Source of the DNA: a virus
IMG/VR virus record: IMGVR_UViG_3300045988_085459
Direction: 5' to 3' (one strand)
DNA: 64,000 nucleotides
A model generated the notes under the pieces. It worked only from the letters and a program-made list of their open reading frames with translations. It was not told the DNA's origin and searched no databases. Made by a program: the position numbers and the translations under genes. Numbering within the stretch: the first letter of the stretch is position 1; each line of letters begins with the position of its first letter. This document shows positions 10,248 through 10,321 of this stretch, one piece after another.

Positions 10248-10321
10248 GTTCTCGTGGTGCAATAGGCAGACACGCGTGGTTTAGAACCATGATGTTGCGG
10301 GTTCGACTCCCGCCGGGAACA
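10248..10321 (+). tRNA. type I tRNA (short variable loop) with anticodon TAG (Leu-type CUA/CUG reader), atypical
   Basis: Acceptor GTTCTCG/CGGGAAC, anticodon arm CGTGG-TTTAGAA-CCATG, variable ATGTT, T-arm GCGGG-TTCGACT-CCCGC, A73, CCA encoded. Confidence 0.55.

What the first reader, a model, noticed from the sequence alone, without database searches (positions are those of the whole stretch)
10248..10321. Type I (short variable loop) tRNA carrying a Leu-type UAG anticodon
Bacterial tRNA-Leu is always type II, yet this otherwise regular 74-nt cloverleaf with A73 has anticodon UAG and a 5-nt variable loop. The genome also has proper type II Leu tRNAs (GAG at 10482, TAA at 20172). Either it is charged by a non-Leu synthetase (identity mimicry or codon reassignment of CUA/CUG for some genes), or its identity elements are relaxed. 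Note that UAG is the anticodon for CUA codons, not a stop-codon suppressor.
Basis: seen in the sequence. Interest (0 to 1): 0.55.

Follow-up and report, generated by a model that had tools for sequence, protein, structure and literature searches.

The report
Phage leucine tRNA lacking variable arm
This is a real tRNA gene in the tRNA cluster of a large uncultured gut phage that reads the leucine codons CUA/CUG but has lost the long extra arm of ordinary bacterial leucine tRNAs; such arm-less leucine tRNAs prove to be common in phages and Actinobacteria, so it looks odd but most likely works as a normal leucine tRNA.

Summary
Positions 10248-10321 (+CCA to 10324) form a 74-nt cloverleaf with anticodon UAG, a 5-nt variable loop and A73 (Rfam tRNA 56.2 bits; ARAGORN). 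The window is phage DNA, not a bacterial chromosome: 31 tRNAs, a tmRNA, an amber-suppressor tRNA and TAG-recoded lysis and tail genes.

The premise "bacterial tRNA-Leu is always type II" is wrong. Type I tRNALeu is published for Streptomyces coelicolor. My scans found type I tRNALeu(UAG) as a solitary chromosomal gene in about 100 actinobacterial genomes, and in roughly 4 of 10 comparable phage tRNALeu(UAG) genes.

The body is Leu-type. The D arm differs by two bases from the window's own type II tRNALeu(UAA), and U8, A14, A15, U48, G18G19 and A73 are present. Relatives whose neighbouring gene is 41-57% identical mostly carry a type II tRNALeu(UAG), two of them in the same Asn-Leu(UAG)-Leu(GAG) slot. 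Relatives at 62% or more carry the type I form with compensatory changes. The arm was therefore lost inside this phage lineage.

CUA/CUG codons in the phage GyrB-like gene align with leucine as often as other Leu codons do (0.41 vs 0.43; non-Leu 0.05). Reassignment and mimicry are not supported. Charging itself is untested.

The parts
10248..10324 (+). Whole gene: type I (arm-less) tRNALeu(UAG), 74 nt plus encoded CCA
   Evidence: ARAGORN; Rfam 56.2 bits; parsed
10248..10254 (+). Acceptor stem 5' strand GUUCUCG; pairs with 10314-10320 (CGGGAAC). No G3:U70
   Evidence: pairs covary in relatives
10255..10274 (+). U8 G9, then a Leu-type D arm: 3-bp stem GUG/CAC, 11-nt loop CAAUAGGCAGA (A14, A15, G18G19, unpaired C13.A22), then G26
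   Evidence: Differs at 2 positions from the D arm of the window's type II tRNALeu(UAA). The top 16 nearest D arms among 981 reference tRNAs are all type II Leu
10275..10291 (+). Anticodon arm: stem CGUGG/CCAUG, 7-nt loop UUUAGAA, anticodon UAG at 10282-10284, A37
10292..10296 (+). Variable loop AUGUU (5 nt; U48 retained). This is the site where relatives carry a further 6-10 nt forming a variable stem-loop
   Evidence: alignment A1; U48 invariant in 92 of 92 type I tRNALeu(UAG)
10297..10313 (+). T arm GCGGG-UUCGACU-CCCGC
10321..10324 (+). Discriminator A73 and encoded CCA
10482..10568 (+). Neighbouring type II tRNALeu(GAG), 87 nt. Conserved synteny partner in the order Asn-Leu(UAG)-Leu(GAG)
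20172..20258 (+). Type II tRNALeu(UAA), 87 nt, with a nearly identical D arm (UG GUG GAAUUGGCAGA CAC)
28423..28499 (+). Second arm-less Leu tRNA of the array: tRNALeu(CAA), variable loop UGUUU, A73, Leu-like D arm
   Evidence: home-made classifier gives Leu 7.9 bits vs next 0.5

Best explanation
The gene encodes a functional phage tRNALeu(UAG) that descends from an ordinary type II tRNALeu(UAG) and has lost its variable stem-loop. It keeps every element that bacterial LeuRS is known to use: A73, the U8:A14 and A15:U48 tertiary pairs, G18G19 in a Leu-type 11-nt D loop on a 3-bp D stem, and the D/T elbow. It is therefore most likely leucylated by the host LeuRS. It serves as the only CUA/CUG reader in the phage's own near-complete tRNA set; GAG reads CUU/CUC, and UAA and CAA read UUR. 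Shown: the fold, the Leu-type body, descent from a type II Leu tRNA within the phage family, conservation with compensatory changes, and the Leu meaning of CUA/CUG codons. Inferred: expression, leucylation by the unidentified host's LeuRS, and decoding range.
For: (1) The fold is real and conserved.
(2) Leu-type body. The D arm is UG-GUG-CAAUAGGCAGA-CAC, against UG-GUG-GAAUUGGCAGA-CAC in the window's type II tRNALeu(UAA). With the anticodon masked and the variable region ignored, a position-weight classifier trained on 981 phage tRNAs gives Leu 11.6 bits vs 4.5 for the next class. The 16 most similar D arms are all type II Leu, although Leu makes up only 36 of the 981.
(3) Family series built through the neighbouring gene 7345-8649. 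Relatives at 100, 82, 63 and 62% identity keep the 77-nt type I gene. Their substitutions are compensatory (D stem U-A to C-G, T stem G-C to A-U) or repair wobbles. Six of seven more distant relatives (57-41%) carry 83-87-nt type II tRNALeu(UAG); the seventh (L262, 45%) has a type I gene of a different sequence class. In L267 and L260 the type II gene sits in the same Asn-Leu(UAG)-Leu(GAG) slot. In L261 its D arm differs from the target's at one base.
(4) In 92 distinct type I tRNALeu(UAG) genes from viral contigs, U8, U48 and A73 are invariant or 91/92, although they were not part of the search pattern. The 13:22 position pairs in only 1 of 92. The 20 helix pairs are 91-100% paired and show covariation.
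(5) Codon test. In the GyrB-like gene, aligned to 140 homologues of 31-57% identity, CTA+CTG columns hold Leu at 0.41, other Leu codons at 0.43, non-Leu codons at 0.05. Leu is the top residue in 7 of 11 columns, P = 1.6e-7.
(6) Biochemical precedent. ScoLeuRS leucylates a natural type I tRNALeu (PMC6614811). For A. aeolicus LeuRS, removing the variable arm mainly lowers affinity, whereas deleting U48 abolishes charging (PMC2377443). E. coli Leu identity is A73, A14 and the tertiary core, not the anticodon (PMC9976931).
Against: There are no expression or charging data. The host and its LeuRS are unknown. E. coli LeuRS could not charge the S. coelicolor type I tRNALeu(CAA) in vitro (PMC6614811), so acceptance of type I substrates is not universal. 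Position 37 is A, not the G that receives m1G37 in E. coli CUN-reading tRNALeu (recalled from memory); both A and G occur in relatives. My isotype classifier is home-made, with 74% leave-one-out accuracy. The codon test rests on 11 codons of one gene.
Confidence: 0.85

Rival explanations
1. Identity switch or codon reassignment: the tRNA is charged by a non-Leu synthetase and inserts another amino acid at CUA/CUG. Precedents are yeast mitochondrial tRNAThr(UAG) and Ashbya gossypii mitochondrial tRNAAla(UAG).
For: It has a type I shape with a Leu anticodon. Precedents for UAG-anticodon tRNAs carrying Thr or Ala exist (PMC7609411). The same phage already recodes TAG.
Against: There is no G3:U70 (U3-A70). 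The anticodon loop is 7 nt, not 8. The D arm is Leu-type, and distant family relatives mostly have a type II tRNALeu(UAG). CTA/CTG columns are Leu-rich to the same degree as other Leu codons. From general knowledge of bacterial identity sets (only the Leu part checked here), most other synthetases for type I tRNAs read the anticodon, and UAG fits none of them. No other CUA/CUG reader is present in the window's array.
Confidence: 0.03
2. Non-functional or non-translational: a decaying tRNA gene that is poorly charged or uncharged, or an RNA kept for another role such as a decoy for tRNA-targeting host enzymes.
For: Phage tRNA arrays do contain aberrant members; the 8-nt-loop tRNA-like gene at 9573-9646 is an example. 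E. coli LeuRS fails on one natural type I tRNALeu.
Against: All four helices and all tertiary nucleotides are intact, and CCA is encoded. The gene persists down to 62% identity of the neighbouring gene, and its changes are structure-preserving. It is the array's only reader for CUA (10.1 per 1000 codons) and CUG (3.7 per 1000). The same architecture recurs in about 100 distinct phage genes and as the solitary chromosomal gene in many Actinomycetota.
Confidence: 0.07
3. The function is the same (Leu at CUA/CUG), but the arm loss is adaptive rather than neutral. An arm-less tRNALeu would escape host effectors that use the long variable arm of class II tRNAs as a handle, such as AbiEii/MenT-type nucleotidyltransferase toxins.
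For: [quoted passage not shown] The abortive-infection toxin AbiEii appears to prefer class II tRNAs (bioRxiv 10.64898/2026.01.19.700257). Arm-less forms make up roughly 4 in 10 comparable phage tRNALeu(UAG) genes. Outside Actinomycetota they occur in tRNA arrays, not as solitary genes. The window phage also carries an RNA ligase and a tmRNA.
Against: This is circumstantial only. The same phage keeps long arms on tRNALeu(GAG), tRNALeu(UAA) and all tRNASer. MenT3 prefers Ser over Leu. Neutral erosion of a dispensable arm explains the data equally well; the T5-like phage HMD-P2 has an intermediate 10-nt variable region.
Confidence: 0.15

Closest known systems
Streptomyces coelicolor type I tRNALeu(CAA) (Fan et al. 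2019, PMC6614811)
   Same: It is a natural bacterial-type tRNALeu with a 5-nt variable loop. It coexists with type II tRNALeu isoacceptors and a single LeuRS, and it is leucylated. The loop length matters, not its sequence.
   Different: The anticodon differs (CAA vs UAG). It is chromosomal and essential rather than phage-borne. That study finds ScoLeuRS does not use A73 and needs its own leucine-specific domain; whether the unknown host LeuRS here has that property is untested.
Type I tRNALeu(UAG) of Actinomycetota chromosomes and of cultured phages (KVP40-like Vibrio phage V09, Streptomyces phage HaugeAnator, Mycobacterium phage Aziz), and the short-loop tRNALeu(UAG) of mycobacterial tRNA clusters (PMC6582537)
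   Same: Same anticodon, a 5-nt variable loop ending in U48, A73, a 3-bp D stem with an 11-nt xAAUxGGCAGA loop, and routine annotation as tRNA-Leu.
   Different: Most of these belong to a sequence class with A9 and a GCC/GGC D stem. The window gene has G9 and GUG/CAC, like canonical type II tRNALeu, and type II relatives within its own phage family share this D-arm type. Its arm loss is therefore a separate event.
Animal mitochondrial tRNALeu(UUR/CUN)
   Same: It is a type I tRNALeu whose identity rests on A73 and A14 without a long arm (PMC9976931).
   Different: It is charged by a dedicated mitochondrial LeuRS and has relaxed, A/U-rich structures. The phage tRNA has a fully canonical elbow.
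Engineered arm-deleted tRNALeu (A. aeolicus delta-V-arm, PMC2377443; E. coli minimalist tRNALeu of Larkin et al. 2002, cited from memory and from reference lists only)
   Same: The variable stem-loop is removed while U48 and the tertiary core are kept, and the tRNA remains a LeuRS substrate.
   Different: These are laboratory constructs with reduced affinity. The gene here is a natural variant retained by selection.
Reassigning UAG-anticodon tRNAs: yeast mt tRNAThr(UAG) and A. gossypii mt tRNAAla(UAG) (PMC7609411)
   Same: They are type I tRNAs with anticodon UAG.
   Different: They have an 8-nt anticodon loop on a His-derived body, or G3:U70. Neither feature is present here, and CUA/CUG behave as Leu codons.

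Membership tests
tRNA (Rfam RF00005) | Cloverleaf with conserved D- and T-loop nucleotides, scoring above the family threshold | tested here: met
   56.2 bits vs gathering score 29; ARAGORN; covariation
Bacterial tRNALeu (LeuRS identity set) | Discriminator A73 | tested here: met
   A at 10321; A73 in 91 of 92 type I tRNALeu(UAG)
Bacterial tRNALeu (LeuRS identity set) | U8:A14 and A15:U48 tertiary pairs, with G18G19 placed in a Leu-type D loop on a 3-bp D stem | tested here: met
   Read from the sequence; the nearest D arms are all type II Leu; U8 and U48 are invariant
Bacterial tRNALeu (LeuRS identity set) | Long variable arm (over 10 nt; class II architecture) | tested here: not met
   The variable loop is 5 nt. 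The arm is not an identity element for bacterial LeuRS, so this failure bears on architecture, not on Leu identity
Bacterial tRNALeu (LeuRS identity set) | Descent from tRNALeu | tested here: met
   Six of seven distant family relatives carry a type II tRNALeu(UAG): in the same slot in L267 and L260, and with a D arm one base from the target's in L261
Bacterial tRNALeu (LeuRS identity set) | The codons it reads specify leucine | tested here: met
   CTA/CTG columns hold Leu at 0.41, against 0.43 for other Leu codons and 0.05 for non-Leu codons; P = 1.6e-7
Bacterial tRNALeu (LeuRS identity set) | Actual aminoacylation with leucine | not testable with these tools
   Needs charging assays or aminoacyl-tRNA sequencing
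Type I tRNALeu as in S. coelicolor | 5-nt variable loop, coexisting with type II tRNALeu isoacceptors | tested here: met
   criteria from PMC6614811
Type I tRNALeu as in S. coelicolor | A cognate LeuRS able to charge type I substrates (Sco-type leucine-specific domain) | not testable with these tools
   The host is unidentified. No ORF in the window has the size or domains of a LeuRS
Sense-codon-reassigning tRNA(UAG) | Identity elements of another amino acid (G3:U70, or an 8-nt anticodon loop on a non-Leu body), and non-Leu residues at CUN codons | tested here: not met
   U3-A70, a 7-nt loop, a Leu-type body, and Leu-rich columns
Nonsense suppressor tRNA | Anticodon complementary to a stop codon | tested here: not met
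   Anticodon UAG reads CUA/CUG. The suppressor, with anticodon CUA, is a separate gene at 27598-27672

The most novel reading that the evidence does not exclude
Loss of the tRNALeu variable arm is a recurrent, selected trait of phage and mobile tRNA arrays in hosts well beyond Actinobacteria. It implies either that most bacterial LeuRSs accept arm-less tRNALeu in vivo, or that phages gain resistance to host effectors that grip the long arm of class II tRNAs, such as AbiEii/MenT-type toxins. The window's phage family would then be a natural before-and-after series for testing this.
Probability: 0.15. Interest if true: 0.65.

Novelty: new member of a known kind. Interest (0 to 1): 0.3.

Why it matters
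For this locus the result is mainly a correction. A type I tRNA with a Leu anticodon in phage DNA should be annotated as tRNALeu, not flagged as mimicry or codon reassignment.

The wider picture is poorly covered in the literature I could search. In my sample, arm-less tRNALeu(UAG) made up about 40-48% of comparable phage genes. It is the solitary chromosomal form in many Actinomycetota, and outside that phylum it appears only inside tRNA arrays.

This phage family offers closely related genomes that differ in whether the arm is present at a syntenic gene. That is a ready-made natural experiment on what the class II arm of tRNALeu is for, and on how far different bacterial LeuRSs tolerate its loss.

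Tried and rejected
- Megablast of the tRNA array against cultured phages gave only scattered hits to single tRNAs.
- blastn of the 77-nt gene gave no match at E <= 1e-3. A tblastn with the GyrB-like protein found nothing above 36% identity. The phage therefore has no cultured relative, and the host could not be identified. Weak hints (an SLH domain on the lysin, FliD in a relative) were not pursued.
- MFE folding is not informative on its own: z -1.52, and the D arm is mis-paired in the MFE structure.
- The searches with the GyrB-like and GyrA-like proteins returned only relatives of 76-100% identity. These are useless for an independent codon test, so the 50%-clustered library was used instead.
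- The NAMPT alignments to PDB entries were not parsed into the codon test.
- My isotype classifier is crude: 74% leave-one-out accuracy, and it assigns many of the A9-class type I tRNAs to other isotypes (22 of 66 to Leu). I rely on it only for the target, together with the nearest-neighbour and family evidence.
- Literature searches for phage type I tRNALeu found no dedicated study. Larkin et al. 2002 is not in the held library.
- Considered and rejected: a hidden longer variable arm or a shifted anticodon registration; suppressor function; AlaRS, SerRS or TyrRS mimicry.

Full report
**What is there.** ARAGORN finds 31 tRNA genes on the + strand between 9.4 and 28.7 kb, and calls 10248-10324 tRNA-Leu(tag). 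Rfam's tRNA model matches 10248-10321 at 56.2 bits, against a gathering score of 29. Its alignment gives the canonical registration (parsed):
- 7-bp acceptor stem, then U8 G9
- 3-bp D stem GUG/CAC around the 11-nt loop CAAUAGGCAGA
- anticodon stem CGUGG/CCAUG with loop UUUAGAA (anticodon UAG at 10282-10284)
- 5-nt variable loop AUGUU
- T arm GCGGG-UUCGACU-CCCGC
- A73 and an encoded CCA

Only five nucleotides separate the anticodon and T stems, so no long arm or alternative registration is possible. Free-energy folding alone is not significant.

**Context.** The window is phage DNA, not a bacterial chromosome.
- It holds a tmRNA at 17282-17602 and a tRNA with anticodon CUA at 27598-27672.
- Several genes become long ORFs only if TAG is read through.
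- Translated with TAG as Gln, these ORFs give coherent domains that span the TAG positions: phage tail lysozyme plus amidase (10 TAGs), NAGPA-SPOR, Mtd_N tail-fibre-like proteins and an RNA ligase.
- PHROG hits include topoisomerase II subunits, NAMPT, PhoH and DNA ligase.
- Near-identical DNA lies on IMG/VR viral contigs of 96-146 kb and on metagenome contigs of about 147 kb. One homologue is named "MAG TPA: DNA gyrase subunit A [Caudoviricetes sp.]".
- No cultured relative exists.

**Is a type I tRNA with a Leu anticodon anomalous?** No.
- Fan et al. 2019 showed that S. coelicolor has a type I tRNALeu(CAA) beside four type II isoacceptors and that its single LeuRS charges both. E. coli LeuRS did not charge the type I tRNA (PMC6614811).
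- Behra et al. 2019 noted that a mycobacterial tRNA cluster encodes a tRNALeu(UAG) with a short variable loop (PMC6582537).
- I scanned for the pattern AATNGGCAGA-N10-TTAG-N16-GTTCGA, which demands a Leu-like D loop, anticodon UAG and type I spacing.
- In the genome scan, 100 of the 120 8-kb loci hold this tRNA as their only tRNA. Of the 80 rows shown, 69 are named Actinomycetota. All 11 non-actinobacterial rows carry it inside arrays of 4-34 tRNAs.
- Cultured phages annotate the same thing as tRNA-Leu: KVP40-like Vibrio phage V09 (77 nt), Streptomyces phage HaugeAnator (76 nt) and Mycobacterium phage Aziz (tag 75 nt and caa 76 nt). T5-like Salmonella phage HMD-P2 has an intermediate 10-nt variable region.
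- A scan indifferent to variable-region length (GGCAGA-N10-TTAG-N{15,36}-GTTCGA) returned 120 loci. Among the ARAGORN-confirmed tRNA(UAG) genes in the 108 new loci, 37 were type I and 54 type II. The remaining 12 returned loci were already-known type I cases. Arm-less forms are therefore roughly 40-48% of this sample. Lengths are bimodal, 5 nt versus 11-16 nt.
- The viral loci carrying them are mostly low in G+C (median 0.42), so this is not just an actinophage trait.

**Is the body a Leu tRNA?**
- The D arm differs at two positions from that of the window's own type II tRNALeu(UAA) at 20172. It shares the U8-G9, 3-bp-stem and GGCAGA design with tRNALeu(GAG) at 10482.
- I parsed 1,335 tRNAs from the fetched loci. 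I masked anticodons, ignored variable-region length, and trained a position-weight classifier on 981 non-redundant tRNAs, using only long-arm Leu as the Leu class. Its leave-one-out accuracy is 74%.
- The target scores Leu 11.6 bits against 4.5 for the next class, Glu.
- By global alignment, the four best whole-body neighbours and the 16 best D-arm neighbours are all type II Leu, although Leu is 36 of 981.
- In 92 distinct type I tRNALeu(UAG) sequences, U8 and U48 are invariant and A73 is 91/92. None of these was imposed by the search pattern. The 13:22 position pairs in only 1 of 92, and the 20 helix pairs are 91-100% paired with 1-6 pair types each.
- These are the elements reported for bacterial LeuRS recognition: A73, A14, A15-U48, G18G19 and the tertiary core. 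The anticodon and variable stem-loop carry no identity elements. Deleting the arm mainly lowers affinity, while deleting U48 abolishes charging (PMC9976931; PMC2377443; PMC6614811).

**Descent within the phage family.** I used homologues of the neighbouring 434-aa protein (7345-8649) to fetch the tRNA arrays of relatives.

| Neighbour identity | Loci | tRNALeu(UAG) |
|---|---|---|
| 100% | L251-L254, L256 | type I, 77 nt, identical |
| 82% | L130, L119 | type I, 77 nt |
| 63%, 62% | L257, L265 | type I, 77 nt |
| 57%, 56% | L267, L258 | type II, 84 nt |
| 52%, 50% | L259, L260 | type II, 87 and 85 nt |
| 46%, 42%, 41% | L261, L263, L264 | type II, 85, 83 and 85 nt |
| 45% | L262 | type I of the other (A9, GCC/GGC) sequence class |

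- The gene order Asn(GUU)-Leu(UAG)-Leu(GAG) is shared by the window, L257 and L265 (type I) and by L267 and L260 (type II).
- The type II gene of L261 has the D arm UG-GUG-UAAUAGGCAGA-CAC-G, one base different from the target's.
- The MAFFT alignment places an 11-column gap in the type I genes exactly at the variable stem-loop. The type II relatives there have variable regions 6-10 nt longer.
- Across the ten sequences, 98.5% of cells pair and 17 of 20 pairs change on both sides (0 of 500 shuffles as good; slid controls 35-61% paired).
- Between the window and L119 there are seven substitutions. Four make up two compensatory double changes, two turn wobble pairs into Watson-Crick pairs, and one lies in the loop. 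None breaks a pair.
- The simplest reading is a single loss of the arm at the base of the clade with 62% or more identity, followed by purifying selection on the arm-less gene.

**Codon meaning.**
- In 23 confident ORFs (8,014 codons), CTA occurs 81 times and CTG 30 times. The array has no other reader for these codons.
- I aligned the GyrB-like protein (53094-54983) with 140 homologues of 31-57% identity from the 50%-clustered library.
- Mean Leu frequency per column was 0.40 for the 7 CTA columns and 0.43 for the 4 CTG columns. It was 0.36-0.56 for TTA, TTG, CTT and CTC, and 0.051 for the 543 non-Leu columns.
- The mean residue profile of CTA+CTG columns (L 0.41, I 0.12, F 0.08) matches that of the other Leu codons (L 0.43, I 0.11, V 0.10).
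- Leu is the top residue in 7 of 11 columns, against 4.8% of non-Leu columns (binomial P = 1.6e-7).
- The known reassigning tRNA(UAG)s have an 8-nt anticodon loop or G3:U70 (PMC7609411). This gene has neither.

**Conclusion.** The gene is best read as a functional, derived, arm-less tRNALeu(UAG) of a TAG-recoding gut phage. It most probably is charged by the host LeuRS and reads CUA/CUG as Leu.
- Untested: expression, charging, and whether the unidentified host's LeuRS handles type I substrates as ScoLeuRS does or fails as EcLeuRS did on the Streptomyces tRNA.
- Open: why the arm was lost. Neutral erosion of a dispensable element fits the data. An adaptive reading is only circumstantial: escape from effectors that grip the long arm of class II tRNAs, such as MenT3 and possibly AbiEii. 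The phage keeps long arms on its other Leu and Ser tRNAs.
- Novelty is low for the object, which is a new member of a known kind. It is somewhat higher for the general pattern and for the before-and-after series this family offers.

Noticed in passing
window 9573-9646: A tRNA-like gene with an 8-nt anticodon loop (ACUCAAAG), G73, an A4.C mismatch in the acceptor stem and no CCA. In relatives the body is almost unchanged, but the 8-nt loop differs completely: AUUAAAAA in L257 and UUUGAUAC in L265. Other family members carry 8-nt-loop tRNAs that ARAGORN calls (gtat) and (gttt). It may be a quadruplet or frameshift decoder, or a decoy.
   Followed up: partly
window 27598-27672; 21919-26147; 37763-39040; 49901-52170; 59384-60316: A Gln-like amber-suppressor tRNA (anticodon CUA, G73, unpaired 1:72) together with genes that carry in-frame TAG. 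With TAG read as Gln they give coherent domains: tail lysozyme plus amidase (10 TAGs), NAGPA-SPOR, Mtd_N tail-fibre-like proteins, GIY-YIG and an RNA ligase. This indicates TAG recoding of lysis and structural genes.
   Followed up: partly
window 28423-28499: A second arm-less Leu tRNA, anticodon CAA, with variable loop UGUUU, A73 and a Leu-like D arm. It scores as Leu in the home-made classifier.
   Followed up: partly
window 28643-28729: tRNA-Cys(GCA) of 87 nt with a long variable arm and U73, the reverse anomaly: a normally type I isotype with a class II arm. Similar 84-nt Cys and Trp tRNAs occur in viral locus L002.
   Followed up: no
window 17282-17602: A phage-encoded tmRNA (Rfam 76.8 bits) inside the tRNA array. 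Relatives also have a small ORF with a weak ArfA (ribosome-rescue) hit, and T4_Y16D.
   Followed up: no
window 28857-33230: An 813-aa protein with Major Vault Protein shoulder and repeat domains (PF11978, 9.5e-18) lies next to a 506-aa DUF2828/DUF7788 protein (PHROG 'RNA-binding protein'). Both come directly after the last tRNAs, an arrangement that recalls a vault-like module.
   Followed up: no
window 19970-20086 and 20277-20361: Two Rfam tRNA matches that ARAGORN does not call (117 nt at 49.8 bits; 85 nt at 32.4 bits). They may be an intron-containing tRNA and a class II tRNA. ARAGORN calls no Tyr or Asp tRNA in the window.
   Followed up: no
window 33028-41438: A chain of short ORFs in different frames that overlap by tens of bases. 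They may be frameshifted or fragmented genes, assembly indels, or programmed events.
   Followed up: no
window 41520-43822: A phage-encoded NAD salvage pair: NAMPT (1e-96 to solved NAMPT structures) followed by NAD synthase.
   Followed up: no
L251-L253, L258, L259, L263, L267 (relatives of window 9.4-21 kb): The tRNA array is interspersed with GIY-YIG and HNH homing-endonuclease genes. It shows presence/absence differences even among near-identical genomes: L251 has Asp(gtc) and lacks Glu(ctc), and L253 lacks Asn(gtt).
   Followed up: no
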